Assembly (NCBI GenBank): GCA_965645245.1
Contig: OZ287087.1
Location: 1,178,001-1,242,000 of the forward strand
Direction of reading: 5' to 3'
Origin: Massalongia carnosa
Lineage: Eukaryota
Length of the DNA: 64,000 bases
Below the pieces are notes generated by a model. The model did no database searches and was not told where the DNA came from. It saw nothing but the letters and a program-made list of their open reading frames with translations. The position numbers and the translations under genes are program-made. Positions 13,469-60,321 of the stretch are shown piece after piece; the stretch's first letter is position 1; each line of letters starts with the position of its first letter.

Positions 13469-14192
13469 TAGGGTGGCCGTTGGGTTGGGTTTAGGACAAA
13501 GTTGATGTCCTAGTCCGTCCGTTGGACCCCAACAGGGTTGGACAAATTCGGCCTAGTTGTCAAACCCTAGGACGTTTGTCCGTTGGGTTGCCCTACTCGA
13601 TTACTCCCGAACGAACATCAATACAGTTCATTATCTGCATCTACATCTAAATTATCATCTACTGACTACTCTTTAGAGAGAATTTATGAAATTATAGACC
13701 TCATCAGGCGCATTCTAATAATGCAAAAATCATCAACAACGAATCGCTTTTGATAACGTTATGATGGATAGAAGTTGAAATGATCAGAAATATTGCGCCC
13801 GGTGAACGGAGGTGGTGCAAATTGCTCACCGGGCGCAATATTTCTGATCATTTCAACTTCTATCCATTATAAAGTTATCAAAAGCGATTCATTTTTGATG
13901 ATTTTTGAATCATTTGAATACGCCTGATAAGGTATATAATTTCATATTTTATATTTATATAGTAGTTAGTAGGTGATTTTACAAATTTATATGCAGATAA
14001 TGAACTGTTTTGATGTTCAACGTAAGTTCTTTTCTTATCTAAGCTTAGGACATGCCCTTTTAGGGTTGGGTTGGGCGTGGGACAAACGACATGTCCGGTC
14101 AACCCTAGTGGACATTATTTATGTCCGAAATTGTCTATTGGGTTGGGTTGGGAGCACTATTATGGTTACAACCCAACCCATCGGTCACTCTA
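13469..14192. mobile_element. 724-bp non-autonomous hAT-like MITE
   Basis: TIRs TAGGGTGGCCGTTGGGTTGGGTT / AACCCAACCCATCGGTCACTCTA. 8-bp TSD AACATGAT/AACAAGAT. Uninterrupted LINE copies read GAACATGATTACATG here. Confidence 0.88.
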
Positions 14193-17100
14193 AACAAGAT
14201 TACATGTTCTGAAATTTGTCTGTGTCAATCACATGAACAGATCGATGAAATGACGAAAAGCATTCGTCGCTTGTAAAGAAAGTCAGTTAATTCGATCTTG
14301 TCAATGCGAATTTGTGTTGTTAAAGCGCTTTTGTCTTTTTTAACTGCGTGTGTATTTTCGGTCGTTTCTTGCTCAATGAAACTAATTGTATTATAAAGAA
14401 TTCGATGACGCGATTTTGATATGCGCATCATGAATCGTTTCAGATTTTCGGTTGTCGTGCTTCGATTGCTTGCATCTGTTTATGTCGAATTGTAGTCGCA
14501 ACGATATCTTCGCGATATCACGTCGAATAGATTTCGAATCATGATGAGTATGTCTTTGATGAATGAATTATTTTTGAATCGATCAGTAAACCTTTGACTC
14601 AGATGTGCTTCATCTTTCTCGAAGTGAGCTTTTGAAATCATTTGCGATCTGTCTTTCCTCGAAGTTTGTCAGCTATTTTGTTGCATGCGAAGAAGATGAT
14701 TTTTGATTGACCTTCGACTCGGAGTCGATGCCTTTCCTGTGCATGTGAGATGTCGAGATACGTGTCTATGAGCTCTATGAATGTCACTGCTTCTAGTACT
14801 GAGACGAGAGTGACTTTAAAGACATCGATTATGATGTGAAGACAATTGTTTTGCATGACGAAAAACTTGCTCGTTGACGTTTTTGACTTTTTGACTTTCT
14901 TGAGCATATGTCATACGATTGATTCATATGTCATAATCGATCGCATCTCGACATTATAGACTTGTCTAGTCTTGACGAAAATGACACTTCAGATCGATGT
15001 GAAAATTTTTGTCAATGTCATGAATTGTTTGATTATTTTCTCTTGCGTTTTGCGTACGTGCGATCCTTATTTAAATTTGATTTCAATTTGCAGGCTCAAT
15101 ATTCGTATGTTCGTTTTTGATTCAATTTCGATGCTAGCAATGTTGATAGATGCAGTCATGTTGAATTTTTTGAGATTTTTGAACACTTAAATTGTGCGTT
15201 ATTCGTTGATATAAAATCGTGTCAAACGCGTCGACGACGTTCATACTTAACAGTGTTATTATTTTATCTTTTTTCTGTTCTCAAATCGTGTGAACCTGTT
15301 CAGTTAACAGTTTCAGTGCTGACTTTATGAACTGTTCTTTCTTGCTCTCATCTGTGCGTCTAGTAATAATCGATGAGTTTTCGCTAAATAAATTATTTTC
15401 GATTCAATGATGAATTTTATAACTTTACTGAGCGTGTTGAGCAGTGCAATTGATCGACAAGCTTTCGATTTTGTATAATCTTCTTTGTCTGATTTTTTCA
15501 GCGTTATTCTATTTGTCACTTTGAAGATTCGCGAATGATACGAATATGTGACGCAGGCCTGAAACAGAAATGTTAATAATTCGACAAATTTTTCACTGCA
15601 TACTTTGAATATTTTGTTAAATATGCCGTCTGAGCTCGATGTCTTATCGGACTTGAATCGATTCAGAGTCGACGATACTTTCGATTTGATTATGATTATT
15701 GAACAGTACGGCGATGTAGAATAGAAGAACCCTTTTATGTCGCTTAAATCGACTGATGATGATGCGAGAAAAAAGAGGCCTTTCAGCATTTCGACTTTTT
15801 GATCGAACGTGTCTGTTACTTTATCATTGAATTTTAGCATTGACATTTTCAATACTTCTTTAAATAAATAACTTTTGTCTTTGATTCATTTTATTAATCG
15901 TCATAGTCTTTGAAACGTTTCGATGATTTTATTGATTTTTTGACGAAAGTTTGTTTTCTTTGTCTTTTGAAAAATTTTCTGTTTTTTGTCATTGAATTTC
16001 ATATAATTAAATCAGTTCGTTAGATTTAGCGTGCTAGATCATATGCGACGTAATTTTCGTGTGACTTTGATGACAGTGCTGCATTCTTCAATTCAAAAGA
16101 GCTCAACATATTCGCTGAGCTTTGCTCATGAAACGACTTCGTTGATGATCTTTTGTAGAAATTTTTGAATCGATTTCGTGTACGCATCAATTTCGACAGT
16201 AATGCGAAAAGATTTCGATGCAAATGCGTGACGTTCGATTTCTTTTAATTTTTTCAGATTTAAAAGTTTTCATGTTCTGCGTTTGATTTTCGATTGCGAT
16301 TCGCTCTCGAGTAAAATGCGAATTGATATCGAAACATGATCAAATGATTAATTTAATTCTGATCTGAACATGCAGTGTTCGAGTCTTTCAACTAAATATT
16401 CTGACATGAAAATCAAATTTATCGTTTTAAACGTGTTTCTTGCTTTTCATGTTACGATGTCTTTCGACAGTGTCAACGAGAGATTGTGATCATCGATTAT
16501 TTTTAATAATTTATCAGCAGCAGCGTGTTGTTTGAGTATTGAGAAATCATTTCAAATGAAATGATGCAGATTGAAATCATCAAGTAATATGTGATGCGCA
16601 TCGACGATAAGCATGCTTGGAGAGGTCGATAAAGTAGTGAGATTATTTGATAATGAATGAAAGACGAAAGAGAGATTATACACATTATGAACGTGAATTG
16701 TTTTCATGATGTCTTTGACTTAGATTTTTATTTTCAAAGTGCGCATGTCGATAGAGAAGTATTTCATTTTTCAGCTGTCAGTATCTATTAAATCGTTGAT
16801 ATAAAAGCACACTCTGATGTCACTTTCCGAGCGATATAGAAAATGAAAGTCGCTTTGATGAAAACTGAGCGATGTGAAAACAAATGAATTTCGTCACGAT
16901 TCCTGTATTGCAATAATATTATAATTCTGAATGTTTGTGTCTGTTAAGAGAGATATCATAGTATTCACTCTGTTATTTCTGACATCATACTGCAATATAA
17001 AGAGATATTTTGTATCTTTCATAGAATTTTCATCGTTTCGATAACTGTGTTTGATGTGATCTGAGTTTCTGTCGTTAATGCTACGAAATCTGCACGAAAT

Positions 17101-18097
17101 CTTTTCAGTACTGATTTTGCTAAGATCTTTATCATATTTTCTGGATTCATGATGTCTATATTAGCTCAGATGATTACGTCTTCTTTTCGATGAAAACTCG
17201 AAAATGAATCGAATGATGACGTGATACTATGTAGTTTTCTCCTCTTGTAGTTTACTATATTTCACGTTGACGAGATTTCGTTCGTTTGTGTGACTGTAAG
17301 TGTCGATTCTTGTTGAAGTTAAAATTGAAATGTGAACGACTGTGATTCGATTGCGTAAAGAAAAGCGCGATTTTGCATTGTTATTTCAGTTTTTCGCTTT
17401 TTAGCTTTTCAGACTTTGCATGCTGTGAATCATGCTTCGTGTTTCTTTTTTTCGCATACGACGCAGCGACGATACTGTTCTGTTGTCTTTAGATTGCATT
17501 CTTTGCTTTGATGTTTATCGACGTAATGATCACAGGCGACGAGATTGCGACATGATTTATCGATGTGATCTTAATTTTAAAAGTTGAAGTATTGATTCAT
17601 GATGCAATCACGTGTAAAGCGCTCGCAATTCTTTATTTCGTAACTTTTCATTAAATTCTCGATGATTAATCGATTAATCATCTCGACGATGACGATCTTT
17701 ATATGAAACGTCGAATACGCTTTTTTCTTTCTGATGATCTTGATTGATCAGATTATTTTTACGATCTTCAAATTAAAGTGCAGAGGTGTGTTAGCGATCT
17801 GCAGATGAATGATGACTGTTGATTGATTGATCACTTTAATGTTTTTTATTTTTATTTCATTCGTTCTTACGATGTAAATGCGAGTGTGCATCGCAGTTGA
17901 AACGATCATCATGCGAGTTTAATCGATCTTCTTTTGCAGAAACTTCTTTGCTTTCAATGATTCGACTTGTATTTTGATGTCGTCGTTTAACAGTCGCGAT
18001 ATTTATATTATTTCTTCAACTTCATTTTGTAATGTTGTTATCAACTTCTTGATTGACATTAATTTTATTTTATTCTTGATCGCATCTTTCGTGATGT

Positions 18098-18566
18098 TGT
18101 CAGGGCATAGAAGGAATAAGGGCTAAGCTAACTAAGCGGGGCTTAGTTCTACGGCTAGGCTTAGTCATATGGAAAGCAGTTGGTCTGCGTTACGCGGTTG
18201 GTATCCACTGCCGAGAGTATAGTACGAGCGATCGAGATATACGAGGATGCTCGTACGACAAGTGAGCGGATGGTACGATACAGTCAGCAAAGTGTCCACG
18301 ATGCAGTCAGCAGAGTGTTTAGCCGGCTTATCCGGTAGGAGTAATGGGCGGTCAAGATAGTTACAGTATCAAGGGCCCAGAGGGTCAAGGGCTTCGGTCC
18401 GGGTATATAAGGAGGCTGCTCGAGGGAGATGCGATCTTCAACGATTAGTCTTCCGCTTTACCTACATACTTCTTTTAGTATATTAGTATAACAAATCATT
18501 AGTGTCTTCACATTGTCACATATCCCTTGGCCTGGTGTCTGATAATCGCCAGGTCTGACTCTTACA
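18098..18566 (+). repeat. Gypsy 5' LTR (469 bp)
   Basis: TGTCAGGG...CTTACA, with TATATAA at 18404-18410 and two 23-bp internal repeats. Confidence 0.95.
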
Positions 18567-18643
18567 ATTCTAATCGTTCTATCCTTCAAGGAGTGACGAT
18601 CCGTTGACACATTTATACACCTTCTATACACTATCGTCCTACC

Positions 18644-19872
18644 ATGTCCGCGCAAGAAGTTGCCTCTGATACCCTGATGCCGGAGGAGCGGATCGAAGAA
18701 CTTTCGGATTCTGAGGGCCCTGGAAGAGGAGCCCTGACCCCAATGGAAAAAGTAGTCGAACCCATTCAACCCCTGACGTTGGACGAACAGATAGCGCAAG
18801 CTGAGCGCAGGCGTAGCGAACTTAAGAAGGAAGTACGTCTGAGGAATTTGAAAGCCAGTATTGAGCAACTCAAAAGCCTTCGAAACCTCCAAACCCTACC
18901 GGATCATCCAAGGAACCGGTAATGAGAGGAGCCGTTAACCCTCGTTCTGACGACAATGTAGAGATGACGAGTAGCCAGTCAGTACCTGTTGTTGTTTACA
19001 GGAGACGCGCTGCTAGACCCGAGAAAGTCAGTCCCTATCAAGGAAAAACGGTCAAGGAACATCTGGATTATGAGCGGAACTGCAGAGTGGCGTTTCGCGT
19101 GGCAAAAGAGGATTTCCCAGATGATGAATCCAAGATCGCTTTCGCAATGCAATCGCTGGAAGGGGAGCCTAAGGAAGCTTGGCATCGATATGAGGCAGAC
19201 GGTGAAATGCAAAATTATACCTTCGAAGAGTACTTGAAATTCTTGTTAAATATTGTCGAGGACCCAGTTAATCGAGGTCTGCATATGGCCCAATTATTTG
19301 CCGAAGCCAAGCAAGGAGAGAAGCAAACGGTAAGAGCTTTCGAGGCATACTTGAGTAGCCTCGAGGACCAGTTGCCCTCCTATACCGAAGAACAAAGAGC
19401 GACTCATCTGTTTACTAAGTTGCGGCCGTCTATTAGAGCAGCTATAGGCAACTATCAGAATATTCCAAGGACTAGAGAAGCTCTGGTGACTCTGGCCAGT
19501 AGGCTGGAAAACAATCAGAAAAGAGAAAACGATATCTTAACGACGTCGAAGCATGAGCGTCCAAATGTTTCTCACCCCCCTCGCACTAAATCACATAGAG
19601 ATAAGAGGAACGAGGAGATAAAGGACACTGACAAACCAAAACCTACGAAAGACGGTAAAAGGGGTCAGAAAAGAAAGCATGCTGAGACAAAGGAAAGTAC
19701 CGACGAGGTGACATGTTATCGCTGCGGAGAACAGGGTCACTACTACAACAAGTGTCCCAACCCTCCTAAAGACGACAAGGAGCCGAAGCACGGTGTGAAC
19801 GCCGTCGCAAAGTCGGGAAAAGCCAAACATCCACGGAAAGCTCGCCAGCCGATGGAGGGAAACGATCAGTAG
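18644..19872 (+). CDS. gag: Gypsy Gag (split into 92-aa and 316-aa ORFs at a TAATG overlap)
   Basis: Retrotransposon capsid-like region and CYRCGEQGHYYNKC knuckle in ORF 18922-19872. Confidence 0.85.
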
Positions 19873-22800
19873 AAAGCGAGCCAAGCCTATTTCCTGAGGG
19901 GACTATAACGAGGGGAGTCCAAAAATACCCGGCGACAGTGTTGCTTGATGGAGCAGTCGAGATTAATGTGACTAATCAGGGATTCGCCGTCGCTTCAGAT
20001 CTTAGACCTATTGAAAGCGAACTACCTGCTCCTCAATTCATGGATGGTAAAGAGGTTTACTGCTATCGAGCTTATGAGGTAGTAATGGCTCTCGAGGATA
20101 CTTGGCAGCGACATCGCACCTTTACCAGCGTGTTTTACGCAATTGACAAACAGGGCCCTGACTTGGTGTTGGGTCTCCATTGTCTCAAACAGCTGGGTAT
20201 CGTAATCGATTATGGAGCGAAGCGCTGGCGTTATGGCTTTCAGTCTGATATGTTCGAGTTGTGCAAGCCTAAACAGTTTGCGAAGACCCTGGATTCCGAG
20301 GCACCACTCTATGCTATAGTGGCTCAACCCAATGCACCTTCTTCCGAAAGACAACCTGTTAATGTTGGCGCTGTTGATGAGAACAACAGCCAGAACACCA
20401 ACGAAACGCAGGGGATACCTGTGGAATTTGCTGAATTCCAGGATGTTTTTTCTAAGGACAGAGCCAATCAATTAGCTACGCACAAGGACTGTGACAACGC
20501 TATCGATTTAGAAGGCGGTGATCCACCTTATGGTCCTTTATACAACTTATCGAATACGGAACTTAAGACTCTTCGGGAATATCTTGACGACGCCCTGGCG
20601 AAGGGTTGGATCCGGCACTCCACCAGTTCTGCAGGTGCACCAATACTATTTGTGCCTAAGAAGGACGGTACTCTGCGCCTCTGCGTTGACTATCGAGGAT
20701 TGAATAAGGTGACCAAAAAGAATCGTCATCCGCTCCCTCTTATCACGCAGATACTGGATCAGTTAAACGGGTGTTCCTATTTTACCAAAATGGATTTGCG
20801 AGATGCTTATCATCTACGAATCCGCAAGGGCGACGAGTGGAAGACGGCATTTCGATCCCGTTACGGACACTACGAGTATATGGTTATGCCTTTTGGATTA
20901 GCCAACGCCCCTGCAACTTTTCAAGCTTACATCAATAAAGCTTTATCTGGGATCGTGGATATTTTCTGCGTAGTCTATCTGGACGATATATTGGTATTTT
21001 CCAAAGATAGAACCAGCCATGTGGAGCATGTTAAAGAGGTGTTACGTCGTCTAAGGAAACACGATCTCTATGCAAATCTTAAAAAGTGCGAGTTCTTTGC
21101 TCCGGCCGTGGAATATATAGGGTTTATCATTAGCAGCGATGGTATCTCCATGGATCCACGCCGGGTTGAAACCGTGCGGGATTGGCCTGCACTTCAGTCC
21201 TTTCGAGAAATTCAGGTCTTTCTAGGGTTCGCCAATTTCTATCGACATTTCATACGTCATTATTCTCAAATCACTAGGCCATTGACTGACATGCTGAAAG
21301 GCATGCAGGCTGGGATAAAAAGGGGTACTTTTTATCTTACGGCCGAAGGAGCGGAAGCGTTTAGCAAGCTGAAAGAAGCCTTTCAGGGCGCGCCCATCTT
21401 GGTTCACTTCGATCCAGAACTGCTCATTCGCCTAGAGACCGATGCATCGGATTTCGGAATCTCTGGCATTATCTCCCAGTTGCAGAAGGATGGGCAATGG
21501 CATCCCGTCGCTTTCTACACGCGGAAGATGATACCGGCCGAGCGCAACTATGAAACCCATGATCAAGAGTTGCTGGCCATTGTGATGTGTTTTAAACACT
21601 GGAGGCATTACCTGGAGGGTAGCCTGCACCCCGTTGAGGTCCTGACAGACCACAACAATTTGAGGGGTTTTATGAATATTAAGGTGTTGAGTGGTCGGCA
21701 AGCGCGATGGGCTATGAAATTAGCCGCTTATGATTTCGTAATCATGCATCGCTCGGGAAAGACCAATCCTGCCGATGCACCGTCTAGGCGCCCTGATTAT
21801 CAGAGCATCAACACCGTGGTGACGAGATTGTTGCCTACTCTTCAAAAGAAGCTGAGCAAAATAGATTCCTTATGCGTAGGTTATACGCCGGGAATTCGTA
21901 CGGTGCTTGACGCACTTAGGTATGATCTTCGCTCAAAGATAGCTTCGTCCGGGATTGAACCCCTGGAGAATTTAGAGTGTGAAACCTCTAAATCAATTAC
22001 TTCTCTTGACGAAGAGAGTGATACTTTTGAAGTCGGCTTGACGCAATGTATTCCCCGGGCTGTAGCTGTTGCCTTATCAGATGAAGAAAAGCCTTTGGAA
22101 AGTGCTTCCAAGTCAGTGCTTGAACTCATCAAGGCGCTACAGGGGAAAGACGCATTCGTGTCTAGCAGGCGAGAGACCGTTGCTAAGTCTTTGAAGCGCA
22201 AGGGTGGTCGCTCCCCCGAAGCAATTTGGACTATAGATAGCAATGATCTTCTCAATCATCGTGGCAGAATTTACGTGCCCGATGAAGAATCTATTCGTGC
22301 GGAGCTGTTGCGGCGTCATCATGACGACGAGCTCGCGGGTCATTTTGGTGCGGAGAAAACAGCTGAGTTGCTTACCCGCAAATACTATTGGAAAGGACTT
22401 AACAATACTGTGAAGAAGTACACGGAATCCTGCGACATTTGTCAAAGGACGAAGGCGCCTAGGCACCAACCTTACGGGGTTATGCAATCGCTTCCACGTC
22501 CTTCCGGTCCTTGGAAAGAAATCACTATGGATTTCATAACTGGGTTTCCACCTAGCAAGCGTTTCGGCCGGGTTTATGACTCGTGCCTAGTAATTGTGGA
22601 TAGATATACCAAAATGGCGCTATATATCCCGGTTACGAAAAAAATCAATGCAGTGGACCTGGCAGAAATTCTGTTTGAATCGGTAGTATTAAAGTTCGGC
22701 GCTCCTGAGGGCATAGTATCGGATAGAGGGTCGGTCTTTACCAGTGAGTACTGGTCAGAAATTTGTTTTCATTTAAAGACGAAACGCCGGCTTAGCACGG

Positions 22801-23618
22801 CCTTTCACCCTCAAACTGATTGCCAAACCGAACGACAAAACCAGACCCTTGAACACTATTTGAGAGTTTACTGCACTGACAATCAATCCAACTGGGTGGC
22901 ACTATTGCCCCTAGCACAATTTGTCTACCAAGTCAGTTATCAAAGTACGCTTGGGTGCAGCCCCTTTTATTGTATGTACGGCTATAACCCGGAGATTCGC
23001 TACGAAGTCGGGGACGACATCGCTGTGGAGAGGGTGCCCGCTGCGAAAGAACGAGTAAAGCAATTACACGAGTTCAGATATTCTTTAGAGGCACGCTGGA
23101 AAAGCGTATCCGAAGCGCAGGCCAAGTACTACAACAGGAAACATCTTGAGAAAGATTTCAATGAAGGGGACTTGGTAATGTTATCTGCCAAGAATCTAAA
23201 ACAAAAAAGGCCTAGTAAGAAACTTTCACATAAGTTTTTAGGTCCTTTTCGCATTCTAGAAGCAGTCGGCAAGCAGGCGTATCGTCTTGCTCTTCCTACG
23301 ACTTATAGAATTCACCCGGTCTTTCATGTCTCTTACCTAAAACCTTACAAGCGAAGAGATGGTCAAGAGCATATACCGTTTCTACCCCCACCTGAAATTA
23401 TTAACGATGAACAGGAATGGGAAGTGGAAGAAATTATAGGTAGAAGGTCTGAGAAAGGGGAAATATTCTATAAGGTAAAATGGGTAGGATACCCTGAAGA
23501 ATATGATGAGTGGGTACCAGAGAAAGATCTGGATGGAGCCTTAGAACTGAAGCAGGATTTCGATGCAAAGCCGAAAGCAAAGCGCAGGCGAATCAAGAAA
23601 CTACAGGTTACTCGCTGA
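19821..23618 (+). CDS. pol: Gypsy Pol: protease (degenerate LLDG), RT, RNase H, integrase, chromodomain; -1 frame relative to gag
   Basis: Motifs YLDD, ETDASD, HH..CC zinc, DFITG/SDRG/QTER, GPF and WEVEEII..YKVKWVGY chromodomain. The frame is open from 19821. Confidence 0.95.
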   Translation, partial: SQTSTESSPADGGKRSVESEPSLFPEGTITRGVQKYPATVLLDGAVEINVTNQGFAVASDLRPIESELPAPQFMDGKEVYCYRAYEVVMALEDTWQRHRTFTSVFYAIDKQGPDLVLGLHCLKQLGIVIDYGAKRWRYGFQSDMFELCKPKQFAKTLDSEAPLYAIVAQPNAPSSERQPVNVGAVDENNSQNTNETQGIPVEFAEFQDVFSKDRANQLATHKDCDNAIDLEGGDPPYGPLYNLSNTELKTLREYLDDALAKGWIRHSTSSAGAPILFVPKKDGTLRLCVDYRGLNKVTKKNRHPLPLITQILDQLNGCSYFTKMDLRDAYHLRIRKGDEWKTAFRSRYGHYEYMVMPFGLANAPATFQAYINKALSGIVDIFCVVYLDDILVFSKDRTSHVEHVKEVLRRLRKHDLYANLKKCEFFAPAVEYIGFIISSDGISMDPRRVETVRDWPALQSFREIQVFLGFANFYRHFIRHYSQITRPLTDMLKGMQAGIKRGTFYLTAEGAEAFSKLKEAFQGAPILVHFDPELLIRLETDASDFGISGIISQLQKDGQWHPVAFYTRKMIPAERNYETHDQELLAIVMCFKHWRHYLEGSLHPVEVLTDHNNLRGFMNIKVLSGRQARWAMKLAAYDFVIMHRSGKTNPADAPSRRPDYQSINTVVTRLLPTLQKKLSKIDSLCVGYTPGIRTVLDALRYDLRSKIASSGIEPLENLECETSKSITSLDEESDTFEVGLTQCIPRAVAVALSDEEKPLESASKSVLELIKALQGKDAFVSSRRETVAKSLKRKGGRSPEAIWTIDSNDLLNHRGRIYVPDEESIRAELLRRHHDDELAGHFGAEKTAELLTRKYYWKGLNNTVKKYTESCDICQRTKAPRHQPYGVMQSLPRPSGPWKEITMDFITGFPPSKRFGRVYDSCLVIVDRYTKMALYIPVTKKINAVDLAEILFESVVLKFGAPEGIVSDRGSVFTSEYWSEICFHLKTKRRLSTAFHPQTDCQTERQNQTLEHYLRVYCTDNQSNWVALLPLAQFVYQVSYQSTLGCSPFYCMYGYNPEIRYEVGDDIAVERVPAAKERVKQLHEFRYSLEARWKSVSEAQAKYYNRKHLEKDFNEGDLVMLSAKNLKQKRPSKKLSHKFLGPFRILEAVGKQAYRLALPTTYRIHPVFHVSYLKPYKRRDGQEHIPFLPPPEIINDEQEWEVEEIIGRRSEKGEIFYKVKWVGYPEEYDEWVPEKDLDGALELKQDFDAKPKAKRRRIKKLQVTR

Positions 23619-24095
23619 ATCCAGCGAAACCCTTCTTATTCGCCATCTCATCACCATCGGAACCTTCTGCTTTCTCGTCCGGCACCTCATCATCACCATC
23701 AGTATCTTCTACTTCCTCGTCCGACTCCTCATCACCCTTTTCTTCCTTGAGACTCTCGCTGGAGGAGCTTTCGGAGACAACAATCTCGTACTCCTCACCG
23801 TCTTCACCTAAATCAACAAACCACCAACGCTAGCGTTACCGAGCTCGGATCTCTGCTGATAATCGCCATCGTCCCCTTCTCCGCTACTTCTAGCGCTCGG
23901 AGCGGCATCGGCGACCCAGCATTACCAAGAAGCTAGTGATATTTACATCTACCTACGTCAAGCGCCAGGTATTCGCGCTTTCTACAAAACAAACTTGCTA
24001 TCTACGCGACATCTTCTATCACGTCCCTACACACTCCCTTCCGCGTTCGAGTACTGTACGTGCTGGAGGACCAGCACTATAGGAGAGGAGGCAAT

Positions 24096-24610
24096 TGTCA
24101 GGGCATAGAAGGAATAAGGGCTAAGCTAACTAAGCGGGGCTTAGTTCTACGGCTAGGCTTAGTCATATGGAAAGCAGTTGGTCTGCGTTACGCGGTTGGC
24201 ATCTACTGCCGAGAGTATAGTACGAGCGATCGAGATATACGAGGATGCTCGTACGACTAGTGAGCGGATGGTACGATACAGTCAGCACAGTGTCAACGAT
24301 ACAGTCAGCACAGTGTTTACGATACAGTCAGCACAGTGTCCACGATGCAGTCAGCAGAGTGTTTAGCCGGCTTATCCGGTAGGAGTAATGGGCGGTCAAG
24401 ATAGTTACAGTATCAAGGGCCCAGAGGGTCAAGGGCTTCGGTCCGGGTATATAAGGAGGCTGCTCGAGGGAGATGCGATCTTCAACGATTAGTCTTCCGC
24501 TTTACCTACATACTTCTTTTAGTATATTAGTATAGCAAATCATTAGTGTCTTCACATTGTCACATATACCTAGGCCTTGTGTCTGATAATCGCCAGCTCT
24601 GACTCTTACA
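24096..24610 (+). repeat. Gypsy 3' LTR (515 bp)
   Basis: Matches the 5' LTR plus two extra 23-bp units (array at 24274-24365). Confidence 0.95.
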
Positions 24611-25624
24611 GATGTGAACAATGATTTCTCGAGCACGTCGCGCTTTTCTGAATGTGAATGCTTTGTCTTTGCGAGTCTGTTGAGATTTGATATTTTGATT
24701 CTATGAGAATGCGAGCTCGTCGCGACCTAGTCCTGCGACAGCAGCGACATAGATGCGAAGAATGATCTCGTTGCACTTTATGCGTGTTATTGATTGTTGA
24801 ATTCCCTTTAATATTTCATTTATGTTGTTGAGAGTTTCTGCAACTTTGTCATCGACTAGGTTTTGCGCTTGCAGAATTTTCGCTGAATTTTTCAGCAACA
24901 GCAACGCCTTCGAGTCAATCACGATGCTCACTCGATCAATGTACTACTTGATATTTACGTGCAAACCATCCCTCCTTTCGCTGTGCGTTCTCGAGAGCGC
25001 CTTTGATTGTTCGAGTGCCGTCATTCTTCCTTCCGTTTTTCAATAATCGTAACAATCGATATGTAAGTAAAATACGCAAAAATGCATCCAAACCCCAAAT
25101 CTTTAAAAAACTGTATACATAGAATCGCGATTAATGTTGCAAACTACAGCAAAATTGATAAACGAGTATTTATTCGCGTAATTTTGAAGATTCGAGTCTA
25201 ACGAGTTTAAATTATGAAAATTAAAATAAACGAAACACATATAAAAATAAACGAATCTTAAAATAATAGATAACGTGACTAACTTTGTATATATAATTGT
25301 AATCAACTATATGCAAAAGTAAAATTTTGAAAAATTTGAAAATCAAACGTGATTTGTTGAAGTTATTCATGAAAAAAGAATTCTTTTTTTTTTTTTTTTT
25401 TTATTCATTCATTAAGTGTATTCAACCTAAGGTTATGACACTAAACTATTTTAAGATATGGTTTTATTTTACAAATAAATCAACCCTTTATAACCCAACT
25501 ATCTATCGTCAATATTGCCCCGTTTTTACTCCGTGTTAGTAACAACCTTTAGTAATCGAAATATCGATTTTACAATTTGTTTTTGTAAAGCTCGTAAATA
25601 TTCCAGCATAAATCATTTCTAATT

Positions 25625-32125: not shown

Positions 32126-34140
32126 TGAAAAAAGAATATATTCATATAAAAATCTTAAACTTCAAAATTGAAATATCAAAAATTGAATAACATAAAAAAC
32201 ATTAATATTTTAAATATGCAGAATAAAATCAGAATCTTAAATTTTCACAAATTTTGAAAATTTGATCTGATTTGATAAAGTTATACATGAAAACATTATT
32301 AATTAAAACAAAAATCTTAAACTTCAAAAACTGAGTTTTTTGAAAAGTAAATAACGTAAAAAACGTTATATATGATAAATACGCAAAATTGAATCAGAAT
32401 CTTAAATCTTAAAGAAATTTGAGAGTATCACATGATTTGATAAAGTTATTCATGAAAAAAGTATTCATTTCTTAAATTATTCAACAATATCAAAATAAAA
32501 ATATTGAAATGATAACGTAAAAACAATATATGTGTTAAATATATATTTTTAATTGAAAAACTAAAATAATCAAGAATTTTGAAAATTTGACTTGATTTGA
32601 TAAAGTTATTCATGATAACAATAATAATAAATAGAAAATTTTAACAGTAATACTTGTCACGATTTTTCTCGATACTACTTCATTATCAAATTATCGATTT
32701 AACTACTTTAAATTTAATTTTCGAATGAAAATTAATACAAGCAAAAGAAATCGTGATTGAATCGATTGAAAATTAGTGAACGCAGAATTATATAAAAACG
32801 ATATGTGTCTTTTAATTGTTCTTTTATTTTTTATTTTTATTATTTTCGCTTTTAATTTTTCTATAAACTAGTTCAAGAGAAATCATAACAAAATTTTTTA
32901 AAAATTGTCGAAATTTCATTTATCAAATAAAAATTCAATTCTTTTCATAACATAATTTTATTGAAACGATAACGTATGAAGTTTTTATGTATAAAACTTA
33001 ATTGAATGTATATTTAAAATCGCGATTGAAGATTCAGACTACAGCAAAATTGATAAACGAGCGTTTTTTCGCGTAATTTCGAAGATTCAAATCAAACGAT
33101 ATTAAACGACGAAAATCAAAATAAAAGAATTTAACAATAATATTATCTGAAAATTTGCGAATTTTCATTCAAAAAATCTTTTCGATTGAACGACGAAGTC
33201 GAAAAAACACGATTCGAATGAAAATCAACGAGTTTTAATTCAGCGAGTAGAAAATGAAAGTTTTTTCACAATATGATTTTATTGAAGCGGTAACGTAAGA
33301 AAATTTTTACATATAAAAAATAATAAACTGCATGCAGTATTCAAATATTCATAAAGTTTGAAAAGTAAGTAACGTAAATAACCTTATAAATTTTAAATAC
33401 GTAAAGTTTAATCAAAATCTTAAATCTTCAAGAAATTTGAAAGTATCACGTGATTTGATAAAGTTATTCATGAAAAGAGTATTGATTTCTTAGAATTTAA
33501 ACAATATCAAAATAAAAATATTTAAAGTTGATAAAATAAAAAACACTATATTTGTTAAATATTAATTTTTTACTGAAAAAGTCAAATATTCAAAAATTTT
33601 GAAAATCGAACTTGAATTGACAAAGTTGTTGATGAAAACAATATTAATTGATACAAAAACCTCGAACTTCAATATTTGAAACTTTAAAAAATGAGTAACG
33701 TAAAAATCATTTTATACGTTTAATTTATGTAATAAGATTAAAGTTTTAAGTCTTAAATTCAAGAAATTTAAAAATCGCACAAGATTTAAAAAAATTTTAC
33801 TGAAAAAGTCAAATAATCAAAAATTTTGAAAATTGAACTTGAATTGACAAAATTGTTGATGAAAACAATATTAATTGATACAAAAACCTCGAACTTCAAT
33901 ATTTAAAACTTTAAAAATTGAGTAACGTAAAAAAAAACATCTTATACGTTTAATTTACGTAATAAGATCAAATTTTTAAATCTTAAATTCAAGAAATTTA
34001 AAAATCAAACAAGATTTAAAAAAGATATTAATCAAAATAATATTTATTTTTTAAAAATTCATCAATATCGAAAATGTAAAAATTGGAAAATTAATAATAT
34101 TAGACATAATATATATGTTAAATATGCGACTTATTTTATA
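32126..34140 (+). repeat. Continuation of satellite array, including a ~227-bp local tandem duplication
   Basis: Same monomer motifs. TACTGAAAAAGTCAAATA recurs at 33571 and 33798. A decayed GC module lies at ~33131-33350. Confidence 0.8.
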
Positions 34141-51459: not shown

Positions 51460-52552
51460 TGAAATTTCGACAATTTTTAAAAAATATTGTTATGATTTAT
51501 CTAGAACTAGTTTATAGAAAAATTAAAAGCGAAAATAATCAAAATAAAAAAGAAAAGAACAATTGAAAGACACATTTCGTTTTTATAAAATTCTGCGTTC
51601 ACTAATTATCAATCGATTCAATCCCGATTTCTTTTGCTTGTATTTATTTTAATTTGAAAATTAAATTTAAAGTAGTTAAATCAATAATTTGATATTGAAG
51701 TAGTATCGAGAAAAATCGTGACAAGTATTACTGTAAAAATTTTCTATTTATTATTATTGTTATCATGAATAACTTTATCAAATCAAGTTGAATTTTCAAA
51801 ATTCTTGATTATTTAAGTTTTTCAATTAAAAATATATATTTAACACATATATTGTTTTTACGTTATCATTTCAATATTTTTATTTTGATATTGTTGAATA
51901 TTTAAGAAATCTCTTCTTTTTTCATGAATAACTTTATCAAATCATGTGATACTCTCAAATTTCTCTAAGATTTAAGATTCTGATTCAATTTTGCGTATTT
52001 ATCATATATAACATTTTTTACGTTATTTACTTTTCAAAAAACTCAGTTTTTGAAGTTTAAGATTTTTGTTTTAATTAATAATGTTTTCATGAATAACTTT
52101 ATCAAATCAGATTAAATTTTCAAAATTTGTGAAAATTTAAGATTCTGATTTTATTCTGCATATTTAACATATTAATGTTTTTAATGTTATTCAATTTTTG
52201 ATATTTCAATTTTGAAGTTTAAGATTTTTATATAATATATTCTGTTTTAATGAATAACTTCAACAAATCACGTTTGATTTTCAAATTTTTCAAAATTTTA
52301 CTTTTGCATATAGTTGATTACAATTTATATATATAAAGTTAGTCACGTTATCTATTATTTTAAGATTCGTTTATTTTGATTTTCATAATTTAAACTCTTA
52401 GACTTGAATCTTCAAAATTACGCGAATAAATACTCGTTTATCAATTTTGCTGTAGTTTGAATCTTTAATCGCGATTCTATGTATACAGTTTTTAAAAGAT
52501 TTGTGATTTTGATGCATTTTTTGCGTATTTTACTTACATATCGATTGTTACG

Positions 52553-55500
52553 ATTATTGAAAAACGGAAGGAAGAATGACGGCACTCGAACAATCAAACG
52601 CGCTCTCGAGAACGCACAGCGAAAGGAGGAATGGTTTGCACGTAAAGATCAAGTAGTACATTGATCGAGTGAGCATCGTGAGTGACTCGAAGGCATTGCT
52701 GTTGCTGAAAAATTCAGCGAAAATTTTGCAAGCGCAAAACCTAGTCGATGACAAATTTGCAGAAACTCTCAACAACATAAATGAAATATTAAAGGGAATT
52801 CAATAATCATTGACACGCATAAAGTGCAATGAGATCATTCTTCGCAGCTATGTCGCTGCTGTCGCAGGACGAGGTCGCGACGAGCTCGCATTCTCAAAGA
52901 ATCAAAATATCAAATCTCAACAGACTCGCAAAGACAAAGCATTCACATTCAGAAAAGCGCGACGTGCTCGAGAAATCATCGTTCACTTCACGAAAGATGC
53001 GATCAAGAATAAAATAAAATTAAAGTCAATCAAGAAGTTGATAACAACATTACAAAATGAAGTTGAAGAAATAAGATAAATATCGCGACTGTTAAACGAC
53101 GACATCAAAATACACGTCGAATCATTGAAAGCAAAGAAGTTTCTGCAAAAGAAGATCGATTAAACTCGCATGATGATCGATTCAACTGCGATGCACACTC
53201 GCATTTACATCGTAAGAACGAATGAAATCAAAATAAAAAACATTAAAGTGATCAATCAATCAACAGTAATCATTCATCTGCAGAACGCTAACATACCTCT
53301 GCACTTTAATTTGAAGTTCGTAAAAATAATCTGATCAATCAAGATCATCAGAAAGAAAAAAGCGTATTCGACGTTTCATATAAAGATTGTTATCATCGAG
53401 AAGATTAATCGATTAATCATCGAGAATTTAATGAAAATTTACGAAATATAGAATTGCGAGCGCTTTACACGTGATTGCATCATGACTCAATGCTTTAACT
53501 TTCAAAATTACGATCACATCGATAAATCATGTCGCAATCTAGTCGCCTGTGATCATTACGTCGATGAACATCAAAGCAAAGAATGCAATCTGAAGACAAC
53601 AGAACAGTATCGTCGCTGCGTCGTATGCGAAAAAAAGAAACACGAAGCATGATTCACAGCATGCAAAGTCTGAAAAGCTGAAAAGCGAAAAACTGAAATA
53701 ACAATGCAAAATCGCGATCTTCTTTACGCAATCGAATCAATTTCAAATTTAACTTCAACGAGAATCGACACTTACAGTCACACAAACGAAAGAAATCTCG
53801 TCAACGTGAAATATAGTAAACGACAAGAGAAGAAAACTTCATAGTATCACGTCATCATTCGATTCATTTTCGAGTTTTCATCGAAAAGAAGACGTAATCA
53901 TCTGAGCTAATATAGAAATCATGAATCCTGAAAATATGATAAAGATCTTAGCAAAATTAGTACTGAAAAGATTTCGTGCAGATTTCGTAGCATTAACGAC
54001 AGAAACTCAGATCACATCAAACACAATTATCGAAACGATGCAAATTCTTTAAAAGATACAAAATTTCTCTTTATATTGCAGTATGATGTCAGAAATAACA
54101 GAGTGAATACTATGATATCTCTCTTAACAGACACAAAAATTCAGAATTATAATATTATTGCAATACAGGAATCGTGACGAAATTCATTTGATTTCATATC
54201 GCTCAGTTTTCATCAAAGCGACTTTCATTTTCTATATCGCTCGGAAAGTGACATTAGAGTGTGCTTTTATATCAAGGATTTAATAGACACTGACAGCTGA
54301 AAAATGAAATACTTCTCGATTGACATGCGCACTTTGAAAATAAAAATCTTAGTCAAAGACATCATGAAAACAATTCACGTTCATAATGTGTATAATCTCT
54401 CTTTCGTCTTTCATTCATTATCAAATAATCTCACTACTTTATCGACGACTCGAAGCATGCTTATCGTCGATACGCATCACATATTACTTGAAGATTGCAA
54501 TCTGCATCATTTATTTTGAAATGATTTCTCAATACTCAAACAATACGCTGCTGCTGATCAATTATTAAAAATAAAAAAAATCGATGATCACAATCTCTCG
54601 TTGAAACTGTCGAAAGACATCGTAACATGAAAAGCAAGAAACACGTTTAAAACGATAAATTTGATTTTCATATCAGAATATTTAGTTGAAAGAATCGAAC
54701 ACTGCATGTTCAGATCAGAATTAAATCAATCATTTGATCATGTATCGATATCAATTCGCATTTTACTCGAGAGCGAATCGCAATCGAAAATGAAACGCAG
54801 AACATGAAAACTTTTAAATCTGAAAAAATTAAAAGAAATCGAACGTCACGCATTTGCATCGAAATCTTTTCGCATTACTGTCGAAATTGATGCGTACACG
54901 AAATCGATTCAAAAATTTCTACAAAAGATCATCAACGAAGTCGTTTCATGAGCAAAGCTCAGCGAATATGTTAAGCTCTTTTAAATTGAAGAATGCAGTA
55001 CTGTCATCAAAGTCACACGAAAATTACGTCGCATATGATCTAGCACGCTAAATCTAACGAACTGATTTAATTATATGAAATTCAATGACAAAAAACAGAA
55101 AAATTTTCAAAAGACAAAGAAAACAAACTTTCGTCAAAAAATCAATAAAATCATCGAAACGTTTCAAAGACTATGACGATTAACAAAATGAATCAAAGAC
55201 AAATGTTATTTATTTAAAGAAGTATTGAAAATGTCAATGCTAAAATTCAATGATAAAGTAACAGACACGTTCGATCAAAAAGTCGAAATGCTGAAAGGCC
55301 TCTTTTTTCTCGCATCATCATCAGTCGATTTAAGCGACATAAAAGGATTCTTCTATTCTACATCGCCGTACTGTTCAATAATCATAATCAAATCGAAAGT
55401 ATCGACGACTCTGAATCGATTCAAGTTCGATAAGACATCGAGCTCAGACGGCATATTTAACAAAATATTCAAAGTATGCAGTGAAAAATTTGTCGAATTA

Positions 55501-58353
55501 TTAACATTTCTGTTTCAGGCCTGCGTCACATATTCTTATCATTCGCGAGTCTTCAAAGTGACAAATACAATAACGCTGAAAAAATCAGACAAAGAAGATT
55601 ATATAAAATCGAAAGCTTATGGATTAATTGCACTGCTCAGCACGCTCAGTAAAGTTATAAAATTCATCATTGAATCGAAAATAATTTATTTAGCGAAAAC
55701 TCATCGATTATTACTAGACACACAGATGAGAGCAAAAAAGAACAGATTCATAAAGTCAGCACTGAAACTGTTAACTGAACAGGTTCACACGATTTGTGAA
55801 CAGAAAAAAGACAAAATAATCACACTGTTAAGTATGAACGTCGTCGACGCGTTTGACATGATGTTACATCAACGAATAACGCACAATTTACGAAAAAAAA
55901 TATTTCAAAATGAATCACTGAATTGATTAAACAGCTTTTTGAGCGATCGAAACATCACTTTAATCATGAATCGAAAAGTCATCGAGCGATTTGCGATAAA
56001 AACGAGTATTTCACAGAATTTTCTTCTGTCATTCATTCTCTATCTATTTTACTATGCAGATTTACTGAAAATATGTGATCGATCAGACAAAAACACAAGT
56101 GTAATAGAATTCGTAGACGATGCGAACATTTTGACATATGAAAAAAGCATCGAGAAAAATTGCAAAACTTTAGAGACAATACACAGGCAATTTGAGACGT
56201 GAATTTTTCGACGCGAGTTCGTATTCGCTTCGATCAAGTACGAACTCATACATTTGTTTAAAAATCTCAAAAAATTCAACATGACTGCATCTATCAACAT
56301 TGCTTGCATCGAAATTGAATCAAAACGAACATAAGAATATTGAGCCTGCATATTGACATCAAATTAAATTGAGGATCACACGTTAGCAAAACGCAAGAGA
56401 ATATAATCAAACAATTCATGACATTGACAAAAATTTTCACATCGATCTGAAATGTCATTTTCGTCAAGACTAGACAAGTCTATAATGTCGTGATGCGATC
56501 GATTATGACATATGAATCAATCGTATGACATATGCTCAAGGATGTCAAAAAGTCAAAAACGTCAACGAGCAAGTTTTTCGTCATGCAAAACAATTGTCCT
56601 CACATCATACTCGATGTCTTTAAAGTCACTCTCATCTCAGTACTAGAAGCAGAGACATTCATAGCGCTCATAGACATGCATCTCGACATGTCACAGGCAC
56701 AGAAAAGGCATCGATTCCGAGTCGAAGGTCAATCAAAAATCATCTTCTTCGCATGCAACAAAATAGCTGACAAACTTCGAGGAAAGACAGATCGCAAACG
56801 ATTTCAAAAGCTCACTTCGAGAAAGATGAAGCACATCTGCGTTAAAGGTTTATTGATCGATTCCAAAATAATTTATTCATCAAAGACATACTCATCATAA
56901 TTCGAAATCTATTCGACGTGACATCGCGAAGATATCGTTGCGACAACAATTCGAAATAAACAGATGCAAGCAATCAAAGCACATGATGCGCATATCAAAA
57001 TCGCGTCATCGAATTCTTCATAACACAATTAGTTTCATTGAGCAAGAAACGACTGAAAATACACACGCAGTTAAAAAAGACAAAAAGCGCTTTAACAATA
57101 CAAATTCGCATTGACAAGATCGAATTAACTGACTTTCTTTACAAGCGACGAATGCTCTTCCTAATTTCATCGATCTGTTCATGTGATTGACACAGACAAA
57201 TTTCAGAACATGTCATCATGTTTAAAGTGACCGATAGGTTGGGTTGTAACCCTAATAGGGCTCCCAACCCAACCCAATAGAAAATTTCGGACATAATTAA
57301 TGTCCACTAGGGTTGACCGGATATGTCGTTTGTCCGACGCCCAACCCAATCCTAAAAATGCATGTCCTAAGCTTAGATAAGAAAAGAACGTACGTTGAAC
57401 ATCAAAACAGTTCATCATCTGCATCTAAATTTTTAACATCACCTACTAACTACTATACAGATATAATTTATGAAATTATATACCTTATCAGGCGTATTCA
57501 AATGATTCAAAAATCATCAAAAATGAATCGCTTTTGATAACGTTATGATGGATAGAAGTTGAAATGATCAGAAATATTGCGCCCGGTGAGCAATTTGCCC
57601 CTCCTCCGCTCACCGGGCGCAATATTTCTGATCATTTCAACTTCTATCAATCATAACGTTATCAAAAGCGATTCGTTTTTGATGATATTTGCATTATTAG
57701 AATGCGCCTGATGAGGTCTATAATTTCATAAATTATCTCTAAAGAGTAGTCAGTAGATGATAATTTAGATGTAGATGCAGATAATGAACTGTTTTGATAT
57801 TCGTTCGGGAGTAATCGAGTAGGGCAACCCAACGGACAAACGTCCTAGGGTTGGACAACTAGGCCGAATTTGTCCAACCCTGTCGGGGTCAAACGTACGG
57901 ACTAGGACATCAACTTTGTCCTAAACCCAACCCAACGGCCACCCTAATATAGTTCTGCAGATTTATTGACAACAAAGAACAGATGTTTCGCGTCATCGAC
58001 ACGAACGACTATCAACATCTGATCGAATCATCAAAAATTCTGAAGATATTAACCGCTTGACTAATGAAAACAGACTTATTGATTCAATTTTCACTAGCAT
58101 CAACAATATTGTACAATCAACAATAGTTGAACTTCTTTTCATTTTCACATCATAAGCAATCACAGTTTCACATGTTTTTGCTCTGCGTTTTTTGCTCGAT
58201 GACGACTCGAAATCGTATCGAACGAATATCATGAGATATTATTTTTACATCTTTGAAAGGTTTTCCATGTATCATAACCTAGATAGCTTTGCCGGCATGG
58301 GCCGGCCTACGGCCGGTGTCATATCGGAGTATAAATTCATCATCATCATCATC
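52553..58353 (+). mobile_element. Mirror copy of hypermutated LINE (without Gypsy, with MITE)
   Basis: TSD ATCGATTGTTACG at 52540-52552 and 58354-58366. Decayed ORFs nearly the same as the left copy (55225-55926 vs 15325-15852; 54854-55051 vs 16026-16223). Confidence 0.92.
57223..57946. mobile_element. Mirror copy of hAT-like MITE
   Basis: Same length (724 bp), same insertion site in the LINE; flanks ATCATGTT/ATATAGTT. Confidence 0.88.
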
Positions 58354-58692
58354 ATCGATTGTTACGTTATTTGTTTTTCAAAATTTCAATTTTAAATTTC
58401 GAGATTTTTGTAATAATTAATATTGTTTCCTTGAATAACTTCATCAAATGATATCTCATTTTCAAAATTCGTGAAGATTTAAGATTTTGATTCAATTTTG
58501 CGTATTTAACATAGATAATGTTTTTTGCGTTACTGACTATTCAAAATTTCAAAATTTGAAATTCGAGGTTTTTGTATCATTTGATATTGTTTTCATGAAT
58601 AACTTCATCAAATCAAGTCAGATTTTCAAAACTCTTGAATATTTAATCTTTTTCAGTAAAATACTCATATTAACATATATATTGTTATTTGC

Positions 58693-60321
58693 CCCCTGTC
58701 ATCCATTCTTTACCTATTTTACAATGCAGATCTATTGGAAATATGTGATCGACCAGGCAAAAACACAAGTGCAATAGGATTCGTAGACGACGCAAACATT
58801 TTGGCATATGGAAAAAGAACCGAGGAAAACTGCAAAACTCTAGAGGCAGTACACAGACAATGTGAGACGTGGGCTTCCCGGCACGGGTCCGTATTCCCTC
58901 CGACGAAGTACGAACTCATACACTTGTCTAGAAATCCCAAAAGATTCATCATGACTGCATCCATTAATATTGCTAGCACCGAAATTTAACCTAAAATGGA
59001 TATCAGAGTATTGGGCCTACAAATCGACACCAAATTGAAATGGGGACCGCACGTTCGCAAAACGCAAGAGAAAATGGTCAAAGAATCCATGGCATTGACA
59101 AAAATTTCCACATCAACCTGGGATGCCACCTTCGCCAAGGCAAGGCAGATTTACAGTGCCGTGGTGCGTCCGGCCATGATATATGGGTCAACCGTATGGC
59201 ACATGCCCAAAGAAGTCAAAAAGTCAAAAACGTCAACAAGTAAACTCTCCGTCATGCAAAACAATTGCCTTCGCACTATAGCCGGTGCCTTTAAAGCCAC
59301 TCCCATCTCAGTACTAGAAGCAGAGACATTTAAAGCGCGCATAGTCACGCATCTCGACATACTACAAGCACATACAAGGCACCGGCTCCGAGCCGGAGGC
59401 CAATTGAAGATCATCCCCTCCATATGCAACAAAATAGCTGACAAACTTCAAGGCAAGGCAGGTTGCAATCGACTTCATAGCCCACCCCGGGAGAGCTGAA
59501 ACACATCTGGGCCAAAAGCCTACTGATCGACTCAAAAATAGTTCAACCACCAAAGGCACACCCACAATAGTTCGAAGTCTACCCGGCGTTGCACCGCGAA
59601 GCTACCTTTGCGGCAACGGCCCGACACAAGCAGATGCAAACAATCAAAGCACGACAAATGAAGGTCTAGAACGACTCGTGGTACGCATATCAAAATCGCG
59701 TCATCGAACCCTCCATAGCACAATCAGTCCCACTGAGTAAAAAACGGCTGAAAATACACACGCAGATAAAAAAGGCCGAAAGCGCTCTAACGACTCAAAT
59801 CCGCACTGGCAAAATCGGGTTAGCTGACTTCCTCTATAAGCGACGGTTGCCCTCCGTCGCCTCACCGGCCTGCTCATGTGGCTGGCACAGACATGTATTC
59901 ATGTTCTGCAGACTTATTGACAATAGAGAACAGATATTTCGCGCCGCCGGCACGAGCGACTATCAGCAGCTGACCAAATCATCAAAAACTCTGAAGATAC
60001 TAACTGCTTGGCTAATGAAAACAGGCTTATTGAATCAATTCTCACTAGCATCAACATTATTGTAAAATCCACAATAGTTGAACCTTTCTTTCGTTCTTCT
60101 CTTTTCACAAGGCATTACAGTTCCCACAAGTCTTTTGCACTGCATCTCCCGTCCGACGTCGACCCGTAGTCACATCGGACGGGTATCAAGGGACATGGTT
60201 TTTACACCTGTGAAAGGTTTTCCATTTAACATAACTTAGATAGCTTTGCCCGCATGAGCGGGCCTACGGCCGGTATCATATCGGAGTATGAATATATTAT
60301 CAACATCATCATCATAATCAT
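58693..60321 (+). mobile_element. Mirror copy of 5'-truncated LINE
   Basis: Same 5' truncation point and flanks as 11261-12756. RT FVDD fragment through 3'UTR and tail. Confidence 0.88.

What the first reader, a model, noticed from the sequence alone, without database searches (positions are those of the whole stretch)
56040..56400. Non-canonical RIP-like signature: C-to-T at CpC and CpT, sparing CpG and mostly CpA
Comparing the decayed copy (56040+) with the unmutated relative (58711+): GACCAGGC>GATCAGAC, ATAGGAT>ATAGAAT, TTGGCA>TTGACA, CCCGGC>TTCGAC, CACTT>CATTT, TCTAGAAA>TTTAAAAA. The 5' C of CC and CT mutates on both strands (GG>GA, AG>AA), while CG and CA/TG survive. The same pattern hits the satellite module (TTCCGATTGGACGGCGG at ~8742 versus TTCGATTGAACGACGA at 33181). 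Established: Neurospora RIP prefers CpA. Standard TpA/CpA indices would miss this, implying a methyltransferase or deaminase with different specificity.
Basis: partly seen in the sequence, partly recalled or inferred. Interest (0 to 1): 0.7.

Follow-up and report, generated by a model that had tools for sequence, protein, structure and literature searches.

The report
Fossil CpC-targeted repeat mutagenesis, lichen fungus
Old transposon copies in this lichen fungus had nearly every C that sits before another C turned into T, a variant of the fungal repeat-mutating defence that standard tests miss; it has stopped, and a second copy of the enzyme thought to drive such mutation lies broken in the same genome.

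Summary
Confirmed, with a correction: CpC dominates and CpT is secondary. Against young copies of the same LINE, the decayed copy (52575-58355) shows C>T at CpC 456/553, CpT 179/530, CpA 75/691, CpG 36/539, on both strands. The base two positions downstream matters (CCA/CCG/CCT >> CCC, CTA > CTC > CTG/CTT); the 5' base hardly does. The last ~95 nt of the element are spared in all three decayed copies. A Gypsy family and the satellite module show the same order. Standard RIP indices score these tracts negative. The process is a fossil: 33 of 33 young copies and later insertions are untouched. The genome (lichen-type Lecanoromycete) has DIM-2, DNMT5, an intact long RID and a second, short RID paralog that is a decaying pseudogene. 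Best reading: a RIP-like, homology-guided process with 5'-CCD preference; the short RID is the candidate enzyme (correlation only). The scan noted CpC hypermutation before in three other-genome notes (unchecked); my paper searches found no CpC-dominant RIP.

The parts
52575..58355 (+). Decayed full-length LINE copy c1 (contains the finding; interrupted at about 57226-57944 by a later insertion)
   Evidence: Aligns over 4689 + 417 nt to a young 5.1-kb LINE at 79-83%; CpC 456/553, CpT 179/530, CpA 75/691, CpG 36/539; 19 of 21 new ORF2 stops are TGG>TGA
56040..56400 (+).
   Evidence: CpC 31/39, CpT 10/34, CpA 4/59, CpG 4/34 against 58696-59110
58262..58355 (+). Spared 3' end of c1 (about the last 95 nt, up to the (ATC)n tail); coordinates approximate
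   Evidence: 0 of 11 CCD sites mutated in each of c1, c2, c3, against 404/439, 378/414, 405/436 in the body
57226..57944 (.). Later insertion with terminal inverted repeats, not CpC-depleted; ends approximate
   Evidence: LINE homology stops at 57222 and resumes at 57945; CC/GG observed/expected 0.94-1.10 in 57001-58000; ends read
58693..60312 (+).
   Evidence: 95% to young copies; CpC 5/170, CpT 1/164, CpA 17/242, CpG 6/165
13060..25025 (-). Decayed LINE copy c2 in pieces (13060-13470, 14193-15185, 15195-18097, 24611-25025); a duplicate of c1 made after the mutagenesis
   Evidence: CpC 427/524; shares CpT states with c1 at 480 of 488 sites; shares the upstream flank 52239-52700 = 25381-24900
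18099..24610 (+). Ty3/Gypsy LTR retrotransposon inserted into c2 after the mutagenesis; open gag and pol frames, not CpC-depleted
   Evidence: 335-aa and 1282-aa frames, Pfam RT/RNase H/integrase/chromo; LTRs differ at 9 of 464 sites, none at CpC
33121..33806 (+). CpC-mutated copy of the 164-bp-repeat ('satellite') module
   Evidence: Head CpC 12/14 against reference 8683-9376; period 164
8683..9376 (+). Less-mutated reference copy of the satellite module
51740..52560 (.). Satellite-derived, CC/GG-depleted flank upstream of c1
   Evidence: CC/GG observed/expected 0.00-0.19 in 51501-52500; matches the satellite copies

Best explanation
A RIP-like genome defence with a shifted target. Shown: repeats in this TE cluster suffered directional C>T change on both strands, near saturation at 5'-CCA/CCG/CCT, less at CCC and CTA/CTC, little at CTG/CTT and least at CA and CG; the context was re-read after neighbouring changes were fixed (repeated rounds); element ends were spared; the process stopped before the c1/c2 duplication, the Gypsy and TIR insertions and the recent LINE burst. 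Inferred: homologous copies were recognised by pairing, as in RIP, and a RID/Masc1-family cytosine methyltransferase that reads the two bases 3' of the target C modified them, the modified C ending as T. Candidate enzyme (inferred, about 0.4 on its own): the short RID paralog on contig C17, now a pseudogene; its loss would explain why the signature is a fossil while DIM-2 and the long RID look intact.
For: Spectrum in three LINE copies, a Gypsy copy beyond the window (CpC 204/246, CpT 125/273, CpA 61/279, CpG 39/180) and the satellite head. +2 dependence: CCA 146/153, CCG 147/159, CCT 105/131, CCC 58/110, CTA 68/116, CTC 54/127, CTG 28/141, CTT 29/146; weak -1 dependence (ACC 122/142, GCC 128/170, TCC 108/132, CCC 98/109). 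CCC runs end as CTC 32, TTC 28, TCC 1 of 76; a stepwise simulation reproduces this when the CCC rate is about a third of CCD, not when equal (other rates set by hand). Ends spared, p<1e-9 per copy. 0 of 200 1-kb windows of a spaced genome sample were CC-depleted. Four PF00145 genes: DIM-2, DNMT5, two RID-like. Short RID: in-frame TGA before the recognition domain and motifs IX-X, Asp>Val in motif I; same letters in contigs of three runs, and an allele from another study adds a nonsense change and a 1-bp insertion, 10 non-synonymous to 5 synonymous. Its clade of 22 rows is separate from the long RIDs (quick tree) and has Gln for His in the loop after the catalytic PC (21/21 versus His in 97/99 and 82/83).
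Against: No methylation, cross or expression data. The link to the short RID is one genome's coincidence: loss of sex would also silence RIP, and the intact long RID leaves no CpA-type RIP on young copies either. I could not read repeats of relatives with an intact short RID. c1 and c2 are one event, and c3 shares part of their history (CpT both 111, one only 144, neither 260), so the number of independent events is small: about two LINE histories, one Gypsy, the satellite, one tract on C1. All three decayed copies of this LINE lie in one 95-kb cluster while the dispersed copies listed are unmutated, which a regional or imported origin also predicts. One of the breaks in the short RID (frame change plus TAG at L067:5507) may be an intron. 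Xanthoria genomes, whose order carries shorter RID proteins of another clade, are reported with index-detected RIP regions (context not given in the passages read).
Confidence: 0.72

Rival explanations
1. DIM-2 (or DNMT5) methylated heterochromatic repeats at CC/CT in vegetative cells and slow deamination of 5mC produced the transitions; no pairing step.
For: DIM-2 looks intact; a review says Neurospora DIM-2 methylates all CpN with CpT preference and that older repeats need DIM-2 for RIP; decayed copies cluster near a centromere-like region.
Against: Sharp sparing of element ends; unmutated copies and insertions sit inside the same cluster; DIM-2 is still there while the change has stopped; the slow background in young copies leans to CpA/CpG (66/6237, 45/4347) and not CpC/CpT (23/4499, 24/4041).
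Confidence: 0.12
2. The mutated stretches were imported already mutated (introgression or a large mobile element) from another lineage where the process is active; this genome's own enzymes never did it.
For: Decayed LINE copies are confined to one cluster on C21; the spaced sample found none elsewhere.
Against: The decayed copies differ from this genome's young LINE family by only about 3% transversions; a further CC-depleted tract lies on C1 and two depleted windows on C16. It moves the process to a relative without removing it.
Confidence: 0.08
3. A cytidine deaminase of AID/APOBEC type edited the elements directly.
For: Only C>T/G>A is raised and a CC dinucleotide is preferred.
Against: Here the 5' C of CC changes and the determinants lie 3' of the target, both strands are hit equally (256/306, 200/247) and non-LTR, LTR and satellite DNA are all affected. 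APOBEC3G edits the 3' C, reads 5' neighbours and marks one strand (recalled). I did not search the genome for deaminases.
Confidence: 0.06
4. UV damage at dipyrimidines in a sun-exposed lichen, or an alignment/assembly artefact.
For: CC and CT are dipyrimidines.
Against: The C in TC, the usual UV hot spot (recalled), is spared unless followed by C or T (TCA 18/182, TCG 8/134); near saturation is confined to repeats and stops at their ends; long gap-poor alignments and several families agree.
Confidence: 0.02

Closest known systems
Repeat-induced point mutation (RIP) of Neurospora crassa and other Pezizomycotina
   Same: Directional C:G>T:A in repeats, TEs destroyed, AT-rich tracts, RID and DIM-2 homologues in the genome.
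   Different: Target is CpC (CCD) then CpT, not CpA; TpA is not produced, stops are almost all TGA from TGG, GC stays near 30-34%, and the composite RIP index is negative. Badet and Croll (PMC12543289, passages) conclude that RIP-like defences share a CpA preference.
CpT + CpA RIP-like bias of Botrytis cinerea, Sclerotinia sclerotiorum and Magnaporthe oryzae (Amselem et al. 2015, PMC4352252, passages)
   Same: [quoted passage not shown]
   Different: Those fungi keep CpA as a main or second target; the paper's signatures are CpA, CpT and CpG, and the word CpC does not occur in its main text.
RIP regions reported in lichen fungi (Cladonia rangiformis PMC12542154; Xanthoria bioRxiv 10.1101/2024.08.16.608140 and PMC13486527; passages)
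   Same: Low-GC TE clusters, read as centromeres in Cladonia; RID and DIM-2 found in Cladonia.
   Different: Called by GC content or by standard indices; the passages read give no dinucleotide context; Cladonia tracts fall to 10-20% GC.
M.CviPII of chlorella virus (recalled, not checked)
   Same: A C5 methyltransferase recalled to modify the first C of CCD, showing that the fold can read this target.
   Different: A viral restriction-type enzyme; no such gene among the four PF00145 genes found here.

Membership tests
Canonical RIP | Directional excess of C:G>T:A over reverse transitions and transversions | tested here: met
   c1: 746 C>T-type changes against 73/2475 reverse and 153 transversions
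Canonical RIP | Confined to repeated DNA | tested here: met
   Change stops about 95 nt inside the element end; 0 of 200 sampled 1-kb windows depleted. Two depleted tracts (84100-91000 in window-relative numbers, and C1) were not assigned to a repeat family
Canonical RIP | CpA preference | tested here: not met
   CpA 75/691 against CpC 456/553
Canonical RIP | RID/Masc1 homologue in the genome | tested here: met
   One intact long RID on C15 and one broken short RID on C17
Canonical RIP | Near-identical long duplications are hit efficiently | tested here: not met
   At present not: 33 of 33 young copies unmutated; c1/c2 gained almost no CpC/CpT change after duplicating. Fits a past process
Canonical RIP | Premeiotic timing in the sexual cycle | not testable with these tools
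   Needs crosses or parent-ascospore comparison
Canonical RIP | Genetic dependence on RID and/or DIM-2 | not testable with these tools
   Only the coincidence of a dead paralog and a dead process
Canonical RIP | 5mC on the mutated repeats | not testable with these tools
   No methylation data
RID/Masc1 family (short paralog, G000:C17) | C5-MTase motifs of RID type and RID N-terminal region | tested here: met
   PF00145 1.8e-28; 37% to the long RID, 40-48% to the long and other short RIDs aligned; N-terminal homology
RID/Masc1 family (short paralog, G000:C17) | Intact coding sequence | tested here: not met
   In-frame TGA at L067:6135-6137, motif I Asp>Val; further lesions in another allele
APOBEC3G-type editing | 3' C of CC edited, one strand (recalled) | tested here: not met
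   5' C edited, both strands
UV signature | C>T at the 3' base of TC and CC (recalled) | tested here: not met
   TCA 18/182, TCG 8/134, CCA(3' C) 21/148

The most novel reading that the evidence does not exclude
Some lichen fungi split RID into two genes: a conserved long RID and a short paralog that became a dedicated repeat mutator reading 5'-CCD. Loss of that paralog in this species switched the defence off, froze the CpC signature and let a LINE family expand unharmed. RID's recognition loops would then set the RIP target, which could be tested by swapping RID genes in Neurospora, and a whole class of RIP would have been invisible to index-based surveys.
Probability: 0.35. Interest if true: 0.85.

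Novelty: new variant of a known kind. Interest (0 to 1): 0.66.

Why it matters
What sets the sequence target of RIP, and whether RID itself makes the change, are open questions; surveys conclude that RIP-like defences share a CpA preference. A saturating CCD signature shows another target and shows that the usual indices can call heavily mutated DNA 'RIP-free'. A named candidate enzyme with clade-specific loop changes, dead in a genome where the process is dead, gives a direct heterologous test.

Tried and rejected
Equal CpC and CpT targeting: rejected (456/553 vs 179/530, p=5e-62). Treating c1 and c2 as independent: rejected (shared states and flank). Reading the TGA in the short RID as a TGG>TGA product of the process itself: rejected, homologues have no Trp there. 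The frame change and TAG before motif I and the TGA at L067:4747 are not counted as certain lesions (possible 52-nt intron with a branch-site-like word; possible downstream start). Metagenome scan for short-RID loci gave 4 distant hits at 25-29% identity, of no use. No RNA holder was listed for the short RID, so nothing is said on expression. Pattern-guided search for more depleted tracts: 1 of 14 fetched pieces depleted; most hits were an AT-rich LINE or microsatellites. The tract at L139:200-2700 has no close relative in the genome search, so no spectrum. The careful tree did not finish; only the quick tree is used. Cluster look-up named no organisms. Ten paper searches gave no report of CpC-dominant RIP in the passages read; Clutterbuck 2011 and the Letharia genome paper were not read, subscription papers are mostly missing, and supplements (e.g. 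the k-mer tables of PMC12543289) were not opened and may bear on novelty.

Full report
Setting. The window is G000:C21:1,178,001-1,242,000 of a 52-Mb genome in 25 contigs. It is a transposon cluster: LINEs, a Ty3/Gypsy element, a 164-bp-repeat module. Named homologues of its RID-like genes come almost all from lichen fungi and a lichen metagenome holds its DNA, so I take it as a Lecanoromycete; I did not place it further.

The observation. The quoted word pairs are all present in register. In the named stretch C>T falls at CpC 31/39, CpT 10/34, CpA 4/59, CpG 4/34. To fix direction I used 33 young copies of the same LINE taken from the best-scoring loci (40 matches listed in each): the decayed copy has CpC 114/133, CpT 34/117, CpA 14/179, CpG 7/123, and only 18/572 reverse transitions. 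So the claim holds, with CpC far ahead of CpT.

The whole element. With 7 of 10 fetched long copies as reference (3 dropped as truncated or rearranged), three decayed full-length copies were scored: c1 (52575-58355) CpC 456/553, CpT 179/530, CpA 75/691, CpG 36/539; c2 (25025-13060, minus) 427/524, 164/499, 71/651, 32/510; c3 (beyond the window) 469/551, 199/532, 78/678, 45/548. Both strands are hit alike. Four shorter copies in the window are unmutated (CpC 5/170, 3/161, 6/150, 1/53). c2 is a duplicate of c1 made after the event (CpT state shared at 480 of 488 sites; shared flank); c3 is only partly independent. A Gypsy copy beyond the window gives CpC 204/246, CpT 125/273, CpA 61/279, CpG 39/180, and the satellite head at 33121 gives 12/14, 6/15, 3/18, 1/16. 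Of 21 new stops in c1 ORF2, 19 are TGG>TGA (21 of 30 against a second reference).

The target. The base at +2 matters: CCA 146/153, CCG 147/159, CCT 105/131, CCC 58/110, CTA 68/116, CTC 54/127, CTG 28/141, CTT 29/146; the base at -1 matters little. Runs of three C end as CTC 32, TTC 28, TCC 1, CCC 1 of 76 in c1. A single simultaneous hit on every CpC would give TTC; random order at equal rates predicts about 71% TTC among these two outcomes (rejected, p=9e-5 in c1, 0.008 in c3). A stepwise simulation with hand-set rates matched best, of five CCC rates tried, at about a third of the CCD rate. The inferred motif is 5'-CCD, then CCC and CTM, applied over repeated rounds. Reading 3' neighbours is typical of cytosine methyltransferases, 5' neighbours of AID/APOBEC deaminases (recalled).

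Boundaries and spread. In all three copies the last 11 CCD sites (about 95 nt) are unchanged, and the first two or three, while the body is 91-93% changed. That is what a homology-pairing step would leave and not what regional methylation would; the pairing is inferred. CC-depleted kilobases run through about 95 kb of C21; 0 of 200 kilobases sampled on C1-C8 were depleted; 1 of 14 pattern-guided pieces was, on C1, and two windows on C16. The signature is thus rare and clustered, but not unique to this cluster. Standard indices are negative on every depleted tract tested (composite -0.94 to -1.11).

A fossil. All 33 young copies are unmutated (CpC 23/4499) with a slight CpA/CpG lean; two of them differ by 0.5% over 5.1 kb. 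Searches with decayed queries found decayed partners only in this cluster (top 40 candidates each). c1 and c2, 3-5% apart, gained almost no CpC or CpT change after duplicating; the Gypsy inside c2 has open frames and LTRs 9/464 apart.

Enzymes. PF00145 finds four genes: DIM-2, DNMT5 (seen only in part), a long RID with all motifs intact, and a short RID. The short one belongs to a separate clade of 22 rows that includes a Heterodermia protein (quick tree); a Physcia protein is of the long type, so both types occur in related lichens. All 21 clade members have Gln where 97/99 and 82/83 other hits have His, seven residues after the catalytic PC; a role in specificity is a guess. This genome's copy has Val for the motif-I Asp and an in-frame TGA in the last exon before the recognition domain. 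Contigs of runs X1 (possibly the source), X3 and X4 show no difference at these places; X4, from another study, adds a nonsense change and a 1-bp insertion, with 10 of 15 coding differences non-synonymous against 74% expected at neutrality. It is a decaying pseudogene. The match between a dead paralog and a dead process is suggestive but is one case; loss of sex would explain the stop as well.

Known systems. It works like RIP but fails the CpA criterion, so I file it as a RIP-like variant and not as canonical RIP. [quoted passage not shown] Ten searches showed no CpC-dominant case; the library lacks most subscription papers and supplements were not read. Earlier notes of this scan report the same signature on other lichen-type genomes; I could not check them and do not count them as support.

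Verdict. Real, well beyond chance, a new variant of a known kind. Confidence in a RIP-like CCD process 0.72; in the short RID as its enzyme about 0.4. Interest 0.66.

Noticed in passing
window 25600-31245 (-); marker at 30414-30444: An AT-rich LINE whose 31-nt marker occurs 63 times, on every contig C1-C22 and mostly in one cluster per contig: a centromere-like, chromosome-wide targeting pattern. The window lies at the edge of the C21 cluster (1.08-1.21 Mb).
   Followed up: partly
window 25625-31245 (-): The open frames of that LINE avoid CT/AG (0.65-0.76 of expected) and partly CC/GG (0.70-0.98) at synonymous sites and are rich in CG (1.35-1.56), unlike the other elements and host genes tested: possibly an element that survived or adapted to the CpC/CpT process.
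   Followed up: partly
L067:4669-6479 (G000:C17:565,668-567,478, about): Short RID paralog, pseudogene; an allele in run X4 carries further lesions.
   Followed up: yes
window 5156-9376, 10751-11260, 32126-34127, 45659-46095, 51740-52380, 58357-58690, 60323-60838: The 164-bp-repeat module was found only in this cluster and at two places on C16, and LINE 3' ends repeatedly abut it; it may be the end of a DNA element or a LINE insertion target.
   Followed up: no
window 35114-38740 (+): Frames with an OrsD domain and a RecQ-like DEAD helicase, GC-rich and not CC-depleted; probably part of a helicase-carrying mobile element.
   Followed up: no
L172:1-3000 (G000:C1:985,100-988,100) and L139:200-7000: Strongly CC-depleted tracts with no assigned repeat family; if they are single-copy genes or mobile-element cargo, the process leaked or their partners were lost.
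   Followed up: partly
young LINE copies L008-L036 and window 58693-60312: Background change leans about twofold to CpA and CpG, the opposite of the fossil signature; may reflect present-day methylation.
   Followed up: no
window 57480-57780 and 50385-50932: An internal inverted repeat in the TIR insertion and a 50-bp tandem array of 11 copies.
   Followed up: no
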